IMG/VR virus record: IMGVR_UViG_2690316115_000024
Reading direction: 5' to 3' (one strand)
DNA length: 3,890 bases
Origin: a virus
Lineage: Duplodnaviria > Heunggongvirae > Uroviricota > Caudoviricetes
Both the position numbers and the translations under genes were made by a program. The notes beneath the pieces are model-generated. The model worked only from the letters and a program-made list of their open reading frames with translations. It ran no database searches and was not told the origin of the DNA. Shown in pieces: positions 1 through 3,890 of the stretch. Position 1 is the stretch's first letter. Each line of letters opens with the position of its first letter.

Positions 1-573
1 ATGTTTTGCGAAGAAAAAGTAGCTCAAATGGCTGCATACCTACTTCTTAAGAGAGGTGGGCGCATGGCATATCTGAAATTGATGAAGCTGCTCTATCTGT
101 CTAACCGCCAGTCGATTTTGAAGCATGGCAGGATGATCGGCGAAGATAGCCTTTACTCTATGAAATTTGGACCAGTCATGTCGAATACGCTGAACTTGAT
201 TCGCGGTAAGGCTGAAGGCATTGGTGACTACTGGTACAACTTGATAGAGACGAACGGGCATAATGTATCGTTGCGTTCAGATCCGAGGGAAATGGATGCA
301 GACGAGGTCTTTGATGAATTGAGTCGTGCAGATATCCGGATTTTAGATGAAATCTATTCTCGGTATGGGCATATGAACCGATTTGATCTCGCAAATATGA
401 CGCATTTAGAAAGCGTTTGTCCAGAGTGGCACGATCCTGGCAATTCTCGTAAGCCTATAGACCTGAAAGAAATGCTGATCAGTGAGGGTAAAAGCGAGGA
501 TGAGGCTAATCGCATAATTGGCAAAATGGAAGAATCTCAGAAACTTAAGGAATTTTCTTTGCAATTATCATGA
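1..573 (+). CDS. Panacea/DUF4065-domain protein (SocA/GepA-like 'phage-associated protein'); putative antitoxin or regulatory partner of a two/three-gene cargo module; 190 aa
   Basis: Seen: ORF from ATG at 1 to TGA at 571-573. The N-terminal half shows the pattern I associate with DUF4065/Panacea proteins: an N-terminal VAQMAAYLL segment, the KLMKLLYL motif, and a GPV motif (MKFGPVMSNTL) about 30 residues later. The stop overlaps the next start in ATGA (570-573). Limits: the start codon is at the window edge, so the upstream RBS and promoter are not visible and the true N-terminus could lie upstream. Family call is from memory of the motif, not a profile search. Confidence 0.6.
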   Translation: MFCEEKVAQMAAYLLLKRGGRMAYLKLMKLLYLSNRQSILKHGRMIGEDSLYSMKFGPVMSNTLNLIRGKAEGIGDYWYNLIETNGHNVSLRSDPREMDADEVFDELSRADIRILDEIYSRYGHMNRFDLANMTHLESVCPEWHDPGNSRKPIDLKEMLISEGKSEDEANRIIGKMEESQKLKEFSLQLS

Positions 574-989
574 CGGATTATCAGCCATACAGGAAAGGAA
601 CTGTGCTTGCCCCAACTGGACCATGCAATCATCTTCATGTGATTTGTAATGATCCTGTTTATTACCCCGTTAACGATTGTTATTGTGTTTTAGTTGTTAA
701 TATTTCTAGTATCAAGGATGGTGTCCCCCACGATCCGTCTTGCGTCTTGAATTCTGGTGATCATCGCTTTATCAAGCATCCAAGTTATGTTGTTTACGCT
801 GAAGCTATAATTTGGCGAGTGGATAACATGGTTAGAAAGCAGCGATCGGGTGAGATTTCTGTTCATGATGATATGCCAGAAGCTACATTCAATAGAATTC
901 TGGACGGTTTTGATATCTCTGATGAAGTTACGCCAAAGAACCTTAAATTTAAAAATAAATATTGCGTATCATCTATTGATGATGAGTAA
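570..989 (+). CDS. Hypothetical protein, 139 aa, Cys/His-rich, no family recognised; candidate toxin/effector partner of the upstream Panacea-domain gene
   Basis: Seen: ATG 570-572 overlaps the upstream TGA (571-573), so translational coupling is likely and there is no independent SD. TAA stop at 987-989. Cys at residues 19, 26, 37, 39, 58, 132 and His at 21, 23, 54, 65, 70, 99 (motifs CNHLHVICND, DCYCVLVV, HDPSC, GDHRFIKHPSY), with an acidic C-terminal tail. Local GC is low (roughly 30-40% by hand count of sampled 60-nt stretches). Inference: operon position fits a toxin/effector role. I cannot assign a family. Confidence 0.6.
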   Translation: MTDYQPYRKGTVLAPTGPCNHLHVICNDPVYYPVNDCYCVLVVNISSIKDGVPHDPSCVLNSGDHRFIKHPSYVVYAEAIIWRVDNMVRKQRSGEISVHDDMPEATFNRILDGFDISDEVTPKNLKFKNKYCVSSIDDE

Positions 990-1028
990 ACAACAGGAAT
1001 TGTTTCGGTATAACTTCTGGAGTTTTCT

Positions 1029-1202
1029 ATGGAAGATCAAAAAGCAACCAAGCCACAGGTTAAGTTCGACACAATGAAAGCATTCGTAGGTATGGGTGCT
1101 GCTGTTGAAGTTCTGATGAAGGCTGCTCCTAATGCGTTCACTCACGCTACTGTCTCTGGTAAAGAGCAGCAGGGTAAGCTTCGTCGTCTCAAAGCAGCAT
1201 GA
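1029..1202 (+). CDS. Small ORF, 57 aa (MEDQKATKPQVKFDTMKAFVGMGAAVEVLMKAAPNAFTHATVSGKEQQGKLRRLKAA), unknown function; not in the supplied ORF track
   Basis: Seen: ATG at 1029-1031 preceded by GGAG (1019-1022) with 6-nt spacing. An in-frame TAA at 1011-1013 rules out a longer form. TGA stop at 1200-1202 is followed about 20 nt later by a strong intrinsic terminator. Codon choice is dominated by GCT/GTT/GGT/CGT/ACT/TCT, resembling highly expressed enterobacterial genes. Short ORFs are easy to over-call, hence moderate confidence. Confidence 0.4.
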   Translation: MEDQKATKPQVKFDTMKAFVGMGAAVEVLMKAAPNAFTHATVSGKEQQGKLRRLKAA

Positions 1203-1221
1203 TCATAGCTGGTGCTTTTTG

Positions 1222-1250
1222 AAAACCCGCCTTCAGGCGGGTTTTTTCTT
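1222..1250. terminator. Bidirectional Rho-independent terminator between convergent transcription units
   Basis: Seen: AAAA-ACCCGCC-TTCA-GGCGGGT-TTTTTCTT. A perfect 7-bp GC-rich stem (1225-1231 / 1236-1242) with a 4-nt loop is followed by a T-run (1242-1247) on the plus strand and preceded by an A-run (1222-1225), which gives a shorter U-tract for the minus-strand transcript. It lies directly after the plus-strand 57-aa ORF stop (1202) and the minus-strand gene stop (1250-1252). Confidence 0.8.
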
Positions 1251-1531
1251 TAGTGATTTTCTTTGCCCTTCTGTTTGACTGTTCTGACCTGTTCCCACTC
1301 GATACGTCCTTCTTCTCGCCTTTTGTCTATGTATTCCGCAAGATCCTGAATATTGATGCAACGTTTTGCTTTTTGTGATGTGCCGATGCGATATGTTGGA
1401 ACGGGCAACTTACAAGCGTTTGCTTTTGCTTCTGCCGTGGCTGGACTCATACCAAAGTACTTTTGGCTAACTGCTGAGAGTTCAATGTTTGGGGTATTGA
1501 ATTCAGCCATCAGTAAAAACAAGGTGTTCAT
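1250..1531 (-). CDS. PrtN-family / excisionase-like small DNA-binding protein (putative Xis), about 93 aa
   Basis: Seen: minus-strand ORF with TAA stop at 1250-1252. Preferred start is ATG at 1529-1531, preceded by GGAG with 6-nt spacing (GGAGAAAATT-ATG). The track's longer GTG start at 1556-1558 has no SD. It is the last gene of the leftward operon and is followed by the terminator. Established/inference: the sequence (AEFNTPNIELSAVSQKYFGMSPATAEAKANACKLPVPTYRIG...DLAEYIDKRREEG, basic C-terminus) resembles PrtN-like proteins annotated as excisionases in P22/Sf6/HK620-type prophages. From memory, unverified. Confidence 0.6.
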   Translation of the reverse strand: MNTLFLLMAEFNTPNIELSAVSQKYFGMSPATAEAKANACKLPVPTYRIGTSQKAKRCINIQDLAEYIDKRREEGRIEWEQVRTVKQKGKENH

Positions 1532-1567
1532 AATTTTCTCCATCAAAACCGGCTGCACCCGGGAAAA

Positions 1568-2140
1568 TCATAATTCTGTGCTGGTGGCAGGAATTAATTT
1601 CTGCCAGATAGCGGAAACATATTTTGCCTGATGACGGGCATCAGCCAGGGCGTTGTGCCGTTCGCCATCGAAAGGCATGTCCATTTTGGGGTCGAATCCG
1701 ATGGAACGCCCAAGCGTAACGATCGTGCGTACATCGTGGTCATTCCAGTATGCCCACGGGCAGATTTGTCCTGCTCGCTCATAAGCTCCACGTAAAATTA
1801 CGTTGTCGAAGGTGGCTCCGTTACCCCAGACTTTTAAATATTTCGTATTGTCTGCGTGCCGGTTAATGAAATGATTTAGTTCTGAGAGAGCATCGCTGAT
1901 CGACAAAGTATCATCAATACAGATTGCAGCTCGTGCTTCAGGGCTTTGTTTCAACCACCACAGGATGGTATCGCCGTCAGGTGTAGCTCCTTGCTCCATA
2001 GCACTTTCCAGGCTAACAACCGTATAGAATTCTTGTCCGATGTCTCCGATTTCTGGAGTGAAGAACACCGCGCCAATGGAAACGATCGGTGCATCCTTAT
2101 TTTTCCCCATCGTCTCAAGGTCGATCATTAAGTTGTTCAT
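1568..2140 (-). CDS. DnaQ-like DEDDh 3'-5' exonuclease (phage exonuclease), about 190 aa
   Basis: Seen: Exo I motif MIDLETMG (D-x-E) near the N-terminus, Exo II-like WGNGATFDNVIL, and Exo III-like H-x4-D (ERHNALADARHQAKY). ATG at 2138-2140 is preceded by a strong SD (GGAGGTGAAGTG-ATG). The GTG at 2141-2143 used by the ORF track is one codon longer and less likely. The upstream gene's TGA (2140-2142) overlaps this ATG by 1 nt. TGA stop at 1568-1570. Confidence 0.85.
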   Translation of the reverse strand: MNNLMIDLETMGKNKDAPIVSIGAVFFTPEIGDIGQEFYTVVSLESAMEQGATPDGDTILWWLKQSPEARAAICIDDTLSISDALSELNHFINRHADNTKYLKVWGNGATFDNVILRGAYERAGQICPWAYWNDHDVRTIVTLGRSIGFDPKMDMPFDGERHNALADARHQAKYVSAIWQKLIPATSTEL

Positions 2141-2706
2141 CACTTCACCTCCAGCGGCGGTTCCGGTAGCGGCATCCAGTGAGTTGCTTGCTCAATACCA
2201 TTACCCGGCTTAATCGTTGCATCTCCGCGCCGAAAGGTGCTTCCGGTATAGCGTGCGGAGCATATTAGCGGTTCAACCTGAGAGCTATCGAAATTCACCG
2301 AAATAAGCACGTTCTGGCCCTTTTCAGGCATTCGATCACTACAGCTTATCCAACTATCCGGAGTTCCCGGAGAGTTGCCATTTACATCGAAGTTTGGCTC
2401 TGCGTCCTGAACTAGGAGGATGTAACCATTTTTGGCTGTATCAAGTTCTAACGCCTCGGTGACGGTACCGAAATAGCGATTACCTAAATCAACATCACAA
2501 GTGCTTACATCAATGGAAACTTCCATGCCTTCGATTAATTCTGGCAAGTTGTAAGTTTGGCTTACAGGCTCTGCTTCCAGCGATACCAGTGCAATTCGTG
2601 CCAGTTCTTCCGCTTCTTCTGCTGGCAGTACAACGTTGCTGCCAGGTCCGTATGTTTCGCGCCACTGCTGGATTGTCAGCAGGCGTTCTTTGGTAATAGT
2701 GGTCAT
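2140..2706 (-). CDS. DUF551-domain phage protein, 188 aa
   Basis: Seen: ATG at 2704-2706 with upstream AAGGTGA SD; TGA stop at 2140-2142. The C-terminal ATHWMPLPEPP motif is the hallmark I associate with DUF551 proteins of enterobacterial lambdoid prophages. The N-terminal region is acidic. Family call from memory. Confidence 0.75.
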   Translation of the reverse strand: MTTITKERLLTIQQWRETYGPGSNVVLPAEEAEELARIALVSLEAEPVSQTYNLPELIEGMEVSIDVSTCDVDLGNRYFGTVTEALELDTAKNGYILLVQDAEPNFDVNGNSPGTPDSWISCSDRMPEKGQNVLISVNFDSSQVEPLICSARYTGSTFRRGDATIKPGNGIEQATHWMPLPEPPLEVK

Positions 2707-2708
2707 AG

Positions 2709-2900
2709 CTATTTCACCTTAATCTCAACATTTCGCAGCTTTAGCTCTACTGGCAGGTCTGACTTTCCTGTTAATGCTAATGCGAGATTTTCTGGAGTAA
2801 TGAGAGCAGTTATTGTTTTCCCCCTCGCCAGACGAATAATCATTCGTATTTCGCGATCGTCACATGCTCCCGGTCGAACAATTGATATTTGTCCGTTCAT
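2709..2900 (-). CDS. Small hypothetical phage protein, 63 aa (MNGQISIVRPGACDDREIRMIIRLARGKTITALITPENLALALTGKSDLPVELKLRNVEIKVK)
   Basis: Seen: ATG at 2898-2900 preceded by GGAGAGTGAG (SD GGAG, 6-nt spacer) and lying 1 nt after the TGA of the upstream Ea22-like gene (2902-2904). TAG stop at 2709-2711, 2 nt before the next start. The ORF track's 117-aa version (start 3062) would overlap the Ea22-like gene by 160 nt with no SD, so I prefer the internal start. Confidence 0.55.
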   Translation of the reverse strand: MNGQISIVRPGACDDREIRMIIRLARGKTITALITPENLALALTGKSDLPVELKLRNVEIKVK

Positions 2901-2901
2901 C

Positions 2902-3558
2902 TCACTCTCCTTTGATGCGAATGCCAGCGGCGCGCTCGGCTTCACTTTGTTCCCAAAACCACTTGTGAAGCTCCATAAGCTTTTCGTCAATCGGTGCATA
3001 TTTGCGATTAAAGTAGGCCTGAGCATCTTTCTCAGATTCGTCCGGTAATTCGCCTGGGCCAAACAGTGTGTTATAAATCCATGCCAGTCCGCTTTTAGCG
3101 TCGCCAGTCGATTGCCATTCGATAATCGCAGCCTGCATGACCAGAATGTTTTTCCCGATTAATAGGTCCAGTTCTTTGTACCGGTTGCGGATGTATGCAT
3201 TCTCTCTTTGTAATTTTGCGTTGCGCTTCTCTGCGGCTTCCAGCTCAACACGCAGTTTCCCTACCGTTAGCGCAATTTCCTCGTTCTCCTGGTCGCGGCG
3301 TTTTATGTATTGCTGGTTTCTTTCCCGTTCATCTAGCAGCGCCAGCACGGTAGCCGGATTAGCCCTGGCAACAAAATCCCGGACAGGCTTACAATCAATC
3401 TCCGCAATGGGTTGATACGATGTGTAGCCATGCTGTCTTGTATAACTACCGTGACGAATAACGAAAAAATCACCGTTTATTTTTTTAGCCTGCCACTTAT
3501 CTTCACCGGCTTTCACTGCCGCCTCACGCAGTGCCTGATAGTCAATTTTGTTTGTCAT
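2902..3558 (-). CDS. Ead/Ea22-like family phage protein, 218 aa, with a central coiled-coil-like segment
   Basis: Seen: ATG at 3556-3558 with SD GAGG about 7 nt upstream. It overlaps the upstream gene's TGA (3555-3557) in ATGA. TGA stop at 2902-2904. N-terminus MTNKIDYQALREAAVKAGEDKW and a heptad-like charged stretch (ERERNQQYIKRRDQENEEIALTVGKLRVELEAAEKRNAKLQRENAYIRNRYKELD) match my recollection of ead/Ea22-like proteins in lambdoid early-left regions. Confidence 0.75.
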   Translation of the reverse strand: MTNKIDYQALREAAVKAGEDKWQAKKINGDFFVIRHGSYTRQHGYTSYQPIAEIDCKPVRDFVARANPATVLALLDERERNQQYIKRRDQENEEIALTVGKLRVELEAAEKRNAKLQRENAYIRNRYKELDLLIGKNILVMQAAIIEWQSTGDAKSGLAWIYNTLFGPGELPDESEKDAQAYFNRKYAPIDEKLMELHKWFWEQSEAERAAGIRIKGE

Positions 3559-3731
3559 GTAACTACCTCTTCGAATTTCAACTCCAGTTGATCACCCCAG
3601 ATTTCACATGACTCTGAACACGAGCCGGTATCGAATCGCCCGGCCTGCACCATCGCCTGATACAAATTCCAGTAGTCGCTGTCGGCATACATTCTGGCAA
3701 TCCCTTCAAGACTCAGATGACCACGGTACAT
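3555..3731 (-). CDS. Small hypothetical phage protein, about 58 aa (MYRGHLSLEGIARMYADSDYWNLYQAMVQAGRFDTGSCSESCEIWGDQLELKFEEVVT); 5' region abutted by an IS insertion
   Basis: Seen: TGA stop at 3555-3557 overlaps the Ea22-like start. Candidate ATG at 3729-3731 has only a weak, distant SD (AGGT about 9 nt upstream). The ORF track's 83-aa version starts at 3804-3806, which is inside the IS end, so that form is a chimera of IS and phage sequence. The native gene may have been longer and truncated by the IS. Confidence 0.4.
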   Translation of the reverse strand: MYRGHLSLEGIARMYADSDYWNLYQAMVQAGRFDTGSCSESCEIWGDQLELKFEEVVT

Positions 3732-3757
3732 AACGTCTTTACCTGTTCTGCGATGAC

Positions 3758-3890
3758 TGAGGTAGCCTGAGTTTAACGGACACTCCTTCCTGAAATAGAA
3801 TGGCATCAGAAGGAGCTAATAATGAGCAGAAAAACCCAACGTTACTCTAAAGAGTTCAAAGCCGAAGCTGTCAGAACGGTTCTTGAAAAT
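3758..3890 (+). mobile_element. Left end of an IS3-family insertion sequence (best match from memory: IS600), including the terminal inverted repeat and the start of orfA; continues beyond the window
   Basis: Seen: terminal TGAGGTAGCCTGAGTTTAACGGACAC starting at 3758. It begins with the TG typical of IS3-family ends and has GGACAC 20 nt in, as I recall for the IS3 left IR. orfA starts 64 nt inside with a strong SD (AGGAG, 6-nt spacer). Limits: the right end is outside the window, so the exact boundary (3758 versus 3754) and the target-site duplication cannot be confirmed. Confidence 0.75.
3822..3890 (+). CDS. IS3-family transposase OrfA (HTH DNA-binding subunit), N-terminal 23 codons only (MSRKTQRYSKEFKAEAVRTVLEN), truncated by window end
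   Basis: Seen: ATG at 3822-3824 with AGGAG SD. The translation contains the Y-S-x-E-F-K-x-E-A-V motif characteristic of IS3-family OrfA N-termini and matches my memory of the IS600 OrfA start. Confidence 0.8.
   Translation, partial: MSRKTQRYSKEFKAEAVRTVLEN

What the first reader, a model, noticed from the sequence alone, without database searches (positions are those of the whole stretch)
3732..3890. IS3-family (IS600-like) element inserted 26 bp upstream of the first visible gene of the phage early-left operon
Seen: the IS left end (from ~3758) abuts the 5' side of the minus-strand gene chain, and the ORF track's 83-aa ORF is an IS/phage chimera. Inference: the insertion either truncated a longer phage gene or cut the operon off from its upstream promoter (pL-like). 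That would make this prophage transcriptionally crippled (cryptic or domesticated) or dependent on an IS-derived outward promoter. IS600 is most abundant in Shigella, which hints at the host.
Basis: partly seen in the sequence, partly recalled or inferred. Interest (0 to 1): 0.45.

Follow-up and report, generated by a model that had tools for sequence, protein, structure and literature searches.

The report
IS600 insertion inside a prophage gene
A common mobile element (IS600) has landed inside an accessory gene of a lambda-like prophage in an E. coli draft genome; this is an ordinary gene disruption, and the sequence stops there only because the assembly broke at the repeat.

Summary
Window 3758-3890 is the left end of IS600, 133/133 identical to annotated 1264-bp copies. 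The 83-aa ORF is a mechanical IS/phage chimera.

The anatomy was misread. The IS is not in a spacer upstream of a small gene. It sits in codon 226 of a 292-aa PAPS-reductase-family gene. An E. coli prophage that is 100% identical over window 1-3757 carries that gene intact, which gives a clean empty site. The "first visible gene" (58 aa) is only the tail of that gene, starting at internal Met235.

The window is the last 3890 nt of contig CYAY01000031.1, so position 3890 is a contig end inside the IS. The IS right end and the target duplication (expected GAC) cannot be seen, and I could not find them elsewhere.

The host is E. coli, not Shigella. The chromosomal flank is 100% identical to bovine E. 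coli, and the IS600 end occurs in about 55% of complete E. coli genomes.

The operon reading holds. In relatives a pL-like promoter lies about 2.9 kb upstream, and the downstream chain ends in an excisionase. Polarity on those genes is plausible but untested. No outward IS promoter was detected.

This is ordinary and of low interest.

The parts
3758..3890 (+). Left end of IS600 (IS3 family). It holds the terminal inverted repeat beginning TGAGGTAGCC, the element's own inward promoter-like site, the ribosome-binding site and the first 23 codons of orfA. It is cut off at 3890 by the end of the source contig.
   Evidence: 133/133 identical to L002 2011-2143, the start of a 1264-bp annotated IS600. 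100% hits in E. coli genomes. Window = reverse complement of L006 1-3890, which is the end of contig CYAY01000031.1.
3758..3784 (+). IS600 left inverted repeat (IRL), an imperfect match to the right inverted repeat of full copies.
   Evidence: IRL TGAGGTAGCCTGAGTTTAACGGACACT compared with the reverse-complemented IRR TGAGGTGTACTGGCAATAGCGGACACT of L002.
3773..3801 (+). Promoter-like site TTAACG-17-TAGAAT facing into the IS, towards orfA and away from the phage genes visible in the window.
   Evidence: Consensus scan; the same site is found in the reference copy. This is a consensus match only.
3822..3890 (+). First 23 codons of IS600 orfA (MSRKTQRYSKEFKAEAVRTVLEN), preceded by AGGAG at 3811-3815.
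   Evidence: Sequence. The offset of 64 nt from the IS end is the same as for the annotated transposase CDS in L002.
3755..3757 (.). GAC, the target triplet expected to be duplicated at the unseen right end if this is a simple insertion.
   Evidence: Inference. The reference copy L002 is flanked by a 3-bp duplication GAA, and PMC9397093 describes a 3-nt target sequence for IS600. Not observed here.
3555..3757 (-). 3' remnant of a 292-aa PAPS-reductase-family gene, running from codon 226 (second base) to the stop; 66 residues plus the stop are retained.
   Evidence: Identical to the end of the intact gene in L016 and L001. The intact protein hits PF01507 and PHROG 'phosphoadenosine phosphosulfate reductase'.
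3555..3806 (-). 83-aa chimeric ORF: 16 IS-derived codons, one hybrid codon and 66 phage codons. It has no Shine-Dalgarno sequence before its ATG and is probably not a gene.
   Evidence: The sequence upstream of the ATG on the minus strand is AGCTCCTTCTG. The exact product is absent from the protein collection.
3555..3731 (-). It starts at internal Met235 of the PAPS-reductase-family protein. Some pipelines call it wherever the gene is broken.
   Evidence: deposited as CTT39678.1 and others, named PAPS reductase family protein [Escherichia coli].
1250..3558 (-). Operon genes downstream of the insertion, which would be subject to any polarity: Ead/Ea22-like (3558-2902), 63-aa protein (2900-2709), DUF551 (2706-2140), 3'-5' exonuclease (2143-1568), and PrtN-family excisionase (1531-1250).
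   Evidence: Pfam and PHROG hits. Same gene order in uninterrupted relatives. No same-strand promoter-like site between the insertion point and the excisionase gene in the identical relative L016.

Best explanation
**What it is.** A copy of the insertion sequence IS600 (IS3 family, 1264 bp when complete) has transposed into a lambdoid prophage integrated at dusA in an Escherichia coli strain. It landed inside codon 226 of a 292-aa PAPS-reductase-family accessory gene.

**Orientation.** The IS transposase genes point opposite to the phage operon.

**Shown:**
- The exact left junction at 3757|3758.
- The empty site in a 100%-identical relative.
- The identity of the interrupted gene.
- That the window ends at a contig end inside the IS. 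The assembler most likely stopped there because the IS is repeated in that genome.

**Inferred:**
- The IS is full length and flanked by a 3-bp GAC duplication, with the gene's first 676 nt and the rest of the operon on another contig.
- The PAPS-reductase-family gene is inactivated.
- Transcripts from the pL-like promoter, about 2.9 kb upstream, must cross about 1.26 kb of untranslated antisense IS. Expression of Ea22-like, 63-aa, DUF551, exonuclease and especially the excisionase would therefore be reduced by Rho-type polarity, unless the phage antiterminates.
- The gene itself looks dispensable in lysogens, because relatives carry nonsense and frameshift alleles of it.
For: - **Junction and empty site:** (L016 is 100.000% identical over 1-3757 with an intact 879-nt gene). 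The insertion falls after gene nt 676.
- **IS identity:** 133/133 to an annotated IS600. The reference copy is 1264 bp with TG..CA inverted repeats and a 3-bp duplication. PMC9397093 describes a 3-nt target.
- **Contig end:** the window equals the reverse complement of L006 1-3890, and L006 position 1 is the last base of CYAY01000031.1. The same contig is seen in 2 samples, with 2 further similar places.
- **Host:**
- **Operon layout and pL-like promoter:** TTGACA-18-TACATT lies just after the cI-like gene in L016, and there is no further same-strand promoter-like site down to the excisionase. The last gene is an excisionase (phrog_1300, E=1e-39).
- **Dispensability:** C126* in L004, L007-L013, L018 and L023; a frameshift in L005; an independent IS600 insertion in the homologue of strain CFSAN004176.
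- **Hint that upstream genes persist in an IS-carrying assembly:** a CTT-prefixed 178-aa YfdR-like product exists without a CTT-prefixed 125-aa product.
Against: - The right end of the IS and the target duplication were not seen. Exact-pattern scans for either junction found nothing in the genome, viral and metagenome collections.
- The fusion products predicted for a simple insertion (duplication of 0, 3 or 4 bp; three N-terminal alleles) are not in the protein collection.
- Look-ups of the upstream proteins did not return the partner contig.
- Polarity is inferred only. The two hairpin-plus-T sites on the antisense strand of IS600 are no more than chance predicts. Lambdoid antitermination, if this phage has it, classically suppresses IS polarity (my knowledge: Adhya, Gottesman and de Crombrugghe 1974, not checked here).
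Confidence: 0.8

Rival explanations
1. The IS600 end marks a rearrangement or deletion breakpoint, not a simple insertion. IS-mediated deletion or recombination between IS600 copies would have removed or relocated the upstream part of the prophage (PAPS-reductase N-terminus, YfdR/YfdQ/YfdP-like genes, immunity region). The visible genes would then be an orphaned prophage end with no phage promoter.
For: - The right junction was never found.
- E. coli genomes with a chromosomal flank identical to the source show IS-associated decay of the prophage at this same locus: IS903B lies next to the Panacea gene in strain 7_33_46A.
- Strain CFSAN004176 shows nested and multiple IS600 copies around a truncated homologue.
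Against: - A draft contig ending in a repeated IS is what any simple insertion looks like in a short-read assembly.
- A YfdR-like protein with a CTT-series accession exists without the C126* product. This fits the upstream genes being retained in an IS-carrying assembly, although it is not proven to be the same assembly.
- Prokka-style gene calling does not report ORFs that run off contig ends (my knowledge), which would explain the missing fusion product.
Confidence: 0.17
2. One reading: the IS sits in a non-coding spacer 26 bp upstream of an intact small first gene and merely separates the operon from its promoter.
For: An ATG at 3731 opens a 58-aa ORF that some annotation pipelines call.
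Against: In every uninterrupted relative this stretch is the in-frame interior of a 292-aa gene. The 58-aa ORF is called only where that gene is broken by a stop, a frameshift or an IS.
Confidence: 0.01
3. The downstream phage genes are now driven by an outward-reading promoter in the IS600 left end.
For: Outward or hybrid promoters are known for several IS elements (general knowledge).
Against: - No promoter-like site on the minus strand in 3300-3890, or anywhere on that strand of a complete IS600.
- In IS3-family elements the outward -35 element lies in the right end, whereas the left end carries an inward -10 (my knowledge of IS911/IS2/IS3 junction promoters). Here it is the left end that faces the phage genes.
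Confidence: 0.03
4. The junction is an assembly artefact, a chimeric contig end.
For: It lies at the very end of a short-read contig.
Against: - The break falls exactly at the first base of the IS terminal repeat (TG).
- The contig is seen in 2 samples, with 2 more similar places.
Confidence: 0.01

Closest known systems
IS600 (IS3 family, IS3 group), as annotated in E. coli and Shigella genomes and plasmids
   Same: The terminal 133 nt are identical. They include the TG-initiated inverted repeat, the inward promoter-like site, the ribosome-binding site and the start of orfA. The insertion leaves a clean empty site in a relative.
   Different: Only the left 10% of the element is visible. The right repeat, orfB, the frameshift site and the 3-bp duplication are beyond the contig end.
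IS600 insertion in lacZ of STEC O121:H19 (PMC9397093)
   Same: The same IS is inserted inside a coding sequence in antisense orientation to the operon, in a non-Shigella E. coli.
   Different: The lacZ case has a demonstrated phenotype and demonstrated IEE-mediated precise excision. Here no phenotype is known, and whether the host carries IEE is unknown.
IS600 insertion in the homologous PAPS-reductase-family prophage gene of E. coli CFSAN004176 (L003)
   Same: Same IS, same gene family (93.5% nucleotide identity) and same orientation relative to the gene.
   Different: Different position: 647 nt of the gene are retained there against 203 nt here. That site is also compounded by a second IS600 nested in the first. 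It is an independent event.
Polar IS insertions in lambda early operons and in gal (classical IS1/IS2 polarity)
   Same: An IS sits within a long phage early transcript upstream of int/xis-type functions, so reduced distal expression is expected.
   Different: Polarity and its suppression by antitermination were shown experimentally in those systems. Nothing was measured here, and no N homologue was recognised among the called genes of the relatives.

Membership tests
IS600 / IS3 family insertion sequence | Near-identity of sequence to reference IS600 | tested here: met
   133/133 nt identical to an annotated 1264-bp IS600. ISfinder itself was not available.
IS600 / IS3 family insertion sequence | Terminal inverted repeats beginning 5'-TG and ending CA-3' | tested here: inconclusive
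   The left repeat starts with TG at 3758. The right repeat lies beyond the contig end. In the reference copy both are present.
IS600 / IS3 family insertion sequence | Two overlapping ORFs (orfA, orfB) joined by a programmed -1 frameshift, encoding a DDE transposase | not testable with these tools
   Only 23 codons of orfA are in the window. Reference copies are annotated with a programmed frameshift.
IS600 / IS3 family insertion sequence | 3-bp direct target duplication | not testable with these tools
   The right junction was not found in any collection. GAC is expected. The reference copy has GAA/GAA, and a 3-nt target is described in PMC9397093.
IS600 / IS3 family insertion sequence | Existence of an uninterrupted (empty) target site in a close relative | tested here: met
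   L016 is 100.000% identical over 1-3757 and continuous across the site. L001, L017 and L020 behave the same way.
Lambdoid early-left (pL-type) operon | A co-directional gene chain downstream of the cI-like repressor gene, with a strong promoter just past the repressor gene | tested here: met
   In L016 the cI-like gene (6107-6760) is followed by TTGACA-18-TACATT at 6847-6876, the mirror of the pR-like site at 6072-6043. Then come the YfdP-like, DUF2303, YfdR-like, PAPS-reductase and Ea22-like genes and so on. The promoter is a consensus match only.
Lambdoid early-left (pL-type) operon | The operon includes recombination/excision functions at its distal end | tested here: met
   The 93-aa PrtN-family protein matches PHROG excisionase (E=1.1e-39), and a 3'-5' exonuclease lies upstream of it.
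Lambdoid early-left (pL-type) operon | N/nut-type antitermination of the transcript | not tested
   No N-like gene is among the called genes between the pL-like site and the YfdP-like gene in the relatives. No Rfam hit in that leader. No specific search was made.
   The 6446-nt flank is 100.0% identical to bovine E. coli strains and 99.9% to O103 RM8385. The deposited proteins are labelled Escherichia coli.

The most novel reading that the evidence does not exclude
The IS600 copy acts as a polar block between the pL-like promoter and the excisionase gene, locking this dusA prophage into the chromosome as a step in domestication. In addition, the repeated independent inactivation of the PAPS-reductase-family gene (nonsense, frameshift, two IS600 sites) would reflect selection against that gene in lysogens and not neutral decay.
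Probability: 0.12. Interest if true: 0.3.

Novelty: already known. Interest (0 to 1): 0.08.

Why it matters
It matters little beyond annotation. The 58-aa and 83-aa ORFs should be annotated as the remnant of a disrupted PAPS-reductase-family pseudogene. The window edge should be recognised as an assembly break at a repeated IS. IS600 should not be used to infer a Shigella host. If the polarity inference were confirmed, this would be one more example of an IS contributing to prophage immobilisation in E. coli, which is a well-known theme.

Tried and rejected
- **Exact-pattern scans.** I scanned for the left junction and for the predicted right junction (IS600 right end, 0-6 nt, then CGTCCCTGACG...). 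Genome contigs (2 scans), viral contigs (2) and metagenome contigs (1) all gave zero hits.
- **83-aa chimera.** An exact-protein look-up found it is not on record.
- **Predicted N-terminal fusion products.** I tested a simple insertion with a duplication of 0, 3 or 4 bp on three alleles. None is in the collection. This is uninformative if the partner contig ends before the stop codon or carries another allele.
- **Partner contig.** I looked for it through the 125-aa C126* product and the 178-aa YfdR-like product. Only IS-free contigs were returned.
- **Homology search with the predicted fusion protein.** It returned only cluster representatives, and none was the fusion.
- **Complete genomes.** No complete E. 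coli genome or phage record carries this junction. The single 99%-coverage hit (CFSAN004176) is a different insertion site.
- **Shigella host.** Rejected.
- **Outward IS promoter.** Rejected on scan evidence.
- **Rfam.** No family in the window.
- **IS600 target motif.** An apparent GATG(A/T)(A/C) motif in left flanks was set aside. The compared copies were selected by BLAST precisely because their flanks resemble the query.

Full report
**1. The observation**

The window carries a minus-strand chain of phage genes and, at its right edge, a sequence that changes character at 3757|3758.

BLAST of the whole window against complete E. coli genomes gave a 99.9% match over 1-3757 in strain MSB1_9I. 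That match stops exactly at 3757. The last 133 nt match elements annotated as 'IS3-like element IS600 family transposase' at 100% identity.

A three-way alignment shows the switch:
- window: ...GCGATGAC|TGAGGTAGCCTGAG...
- uninterrupted prophage: ...GCGATGAC|CGTCCCTGACG...
- IS600 copy: ...|TGAGGTAGCCTGAG...

A reference copy (L002 2011-3274) is 1264 bp. It has imperfect terminal repeats (TGAGGT...CGGACACT), ends in TG...CA, and is flanked by a 3-bp duplication GAA. The window's 3758-3890 equals its first 133 nt exactly.

The 83-aa ORF (3806-3555, minus strand) is therefore a chimera. It consists of 16 IS codons, one hybrid codon (A|GT) and 66 phage codons. It has no Shine-Dalgarno sequence, and its product is not on record anywhere.

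**2. What was hit**

In MSB1_9I the stretch continuing leftward from the junction is annotated as a 292-aa 'phosphoadenosine phosphosulfate reductase family protein'.

A look-up of the window's Ea22-like protein returned many related prophages. One of them, L016 (GCA_019589685.1), is 100.000% identical to window 1-3757 and carries the intact 879-nt gene. This is a perfect empty site.

The IS lies after gene nt 676, inside codon 226. The window keeps only the last 66 codons. The intact protein hits Pfam PF01507 and the PHROG 'phosphoadenosine phosphosulfate reductase' families, which are classed as moron/auxiliary genes.

It is the internal Met235 of this protein. Pipelines call that 58-aa ORF only where the gene is broken.

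**3. Why the sequence stops**

The 58-aa look-up returned L006, the end of contig CYAY01000031.1 of assembly GCA_001286405.1. The window is exactly the reverse complement of L006 1-3890, and L006 position 1 is the contig's last base.

Position 3890 is therefore a contig end inside the IS. This is the usual signature of a repeated element in a short-read assembly. The same contig is seen in two samples, with two more similar places, so the junction is not a one-off artefact.

**4. The right end**

I could not find it.
- Exact scans for the left junction and the predicted right junction found nothing in the genome, viral or metagenome collections.
- No complete E. coli genome or phage record has the junction.
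- Fusion proteins predicted for a simple insertion are not on record.
- Look-ups through the upstream products returned only IS-free contigs.

There is one weak hint that the upstream genes persist. The 58-aa product has an accession in the CTT series (CTT39678.1), and so does the upstream 178-aa YfdR-like product (CTT82004.1). No CTT-series 125-aa (C126*) product exists.

I rate a simple full-length insertion as most likely and an IS-bounded deletion or rearrangement as the main rival. The locus is prone to IS-associated decay. A strain with an identical chromosomal flank has IS903B next to the Panacea gene and has lost the early-left genes.

**5. Host**

The 6.4 kb of chromosome next to the prophage in the source contig is 100.0% identical to two bovine E. 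coli genomes and 99.9% to O103 strain RM8385. The deposited proteins are labelled Escherichia coli.

The 133-nt IS600 end is present, nearly always at 99% identity or more, in 3004 of 5426 complete E. coli genomes, with a median of one copy. IS600 is expanded in Shigella but also occurs in other E. coli (PMC7373316), and it is active in STEC O121:H19 (PMC9397093). The Shigella hint is not supported.

**6. Operon context and likely consequence**

In uninterrupted relatives the order is: cI-like repressor, a variable segment, YfdP-like, DUF2303/YfdQ-like, YfdR-like 5'-deoxynucleotidase, PAPS-reductase-family, Ead/Ea22-like, 63-aa protein, DUF551, 3'-5' exonuclease, PrtN-family protein. All are co-directional, and the prophage sits at dusA. 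The PrtN-family protein matches PHROG excisionase (E=1e-39).

In L016 a 10/12 promoter-like site (TTGACA-18-TACATT) lies just past the repressor gene. It mirrors an identical site facing the cro-like gene. No other same-strand promoter-like site occurs down to the excisionase. The 'early-left operon' reading is therefore supported, and the IS lies about 2.9 kb into it.

The IS is antisense to the operon. Its own promoter-like site (3773-3801) points away from the visible phage genes. No promoter-like site faces them, either in the visible end or in a full copy. The antisense strand of IS600 has only two weak hairpin-plus-T sites, as expected by chance.

Any effect on the five downstream genes would therefore be Rho-type polarity across about 1.26 kb of untranslated RNA. 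This is an inference. Classical work shows that lambda N antitermination suppresses such polarity (my knowledge, not checked here). Whether this phage antiterminates is unknown.

The Ea22-like gene keeps its own GAGG ribosome-binding site, though its ATGA overlap with the upstream stop suggests it was translationally coupled.

**7. Is the hit gene important?**

Probably not for lysogens. The same gene carries a C126* nonsense mutation in many IS-free relatives (L004, L007-L013, L018, L023) and a 1-nt frameshift in L005. In strain CFSAN004176 a homologue has an independent IS600 insertion at another position.

**8. Verdict**

This is a correctly spotted but ordinary event: a known IS in a known kind of target, in E. 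coli. The anatomy was partly misread, and the regulatory consequences are plausible but untested. Novelty: already known. Interest: low.

Noticed in passing
window 1-989: A Panacea/SocA-like antitoxin-domain gene (1-573) overlaps by 4 nt (ATGA) a 139-aa ORF (570-989) that has no Pfam or PADLOC hit. This may be a PanA-type toxin-antitoxin pair at the prophage end next to dusA. Annotations disagree on the second gene's start (128 or 139 aa).
   Followed up: partly
window 1221-1246: A strong GC-rich hairpin (GAAAACCCGCCTTCAGGCGGGTTTTT) lies between the convergent plus-strand module (Panacea, 139 aa, 57 aa) and the minus-strand excisionase. It is likely the terminator that ends both transcription units.
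   Followed up: partly
L004 9299-10177; L005 9300-10177; L003 4994-5974: The PAPS-reductase-family gene is inactivated independently several times in relatives: C126* nonsense, a 1-nt frameshift, and IS600 at a second site with another IS600 nested in it. This could be neutral decay or selection against the gene in lysogens.
   Followed up: partly
window 3740-3757; L002 ~1995-2010; L027 and L028 ~1485-1517: The left flanks of several IS600 copies end in GATG(A/T)(A/C) and share CTGC-like bases. This might reflect a target preference, but the copies were picked by BLAST because their flanks resemble the query, so the sample is biased.
   Followed up: no
L015 (E. coli MSB1_9I) 1052-13558: In MSB1_9I the whole dusA element is only about 12.5 kb. 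It runs from integrase through an Ash/pRha-like gene, the cro/cI-like pair, ParA and the early-left genes to Panacea, with no structural or lysis genes. It is a remnant or a satellite-like element sharing this early-left module.
   Followed up: no
L016 4657-4845: C4 antisense RNA (81 bits) and isrK (62 bits) lie upstream of the Phage_ASH/pRha gene in the identical relative. This is a P1/P7-type immunity (ant control) module inside a lambdoid prophage.
   Followed up: no
L024 (E. coli 7_33_46A) 7290-9000: A strain whose chromosomal flank is 100% identical to the source has IS903B directly next to the Panacea gene and lacks the early-left genes. This prophage end is a recurrent site of IS-associated decay.
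   Followed up: no
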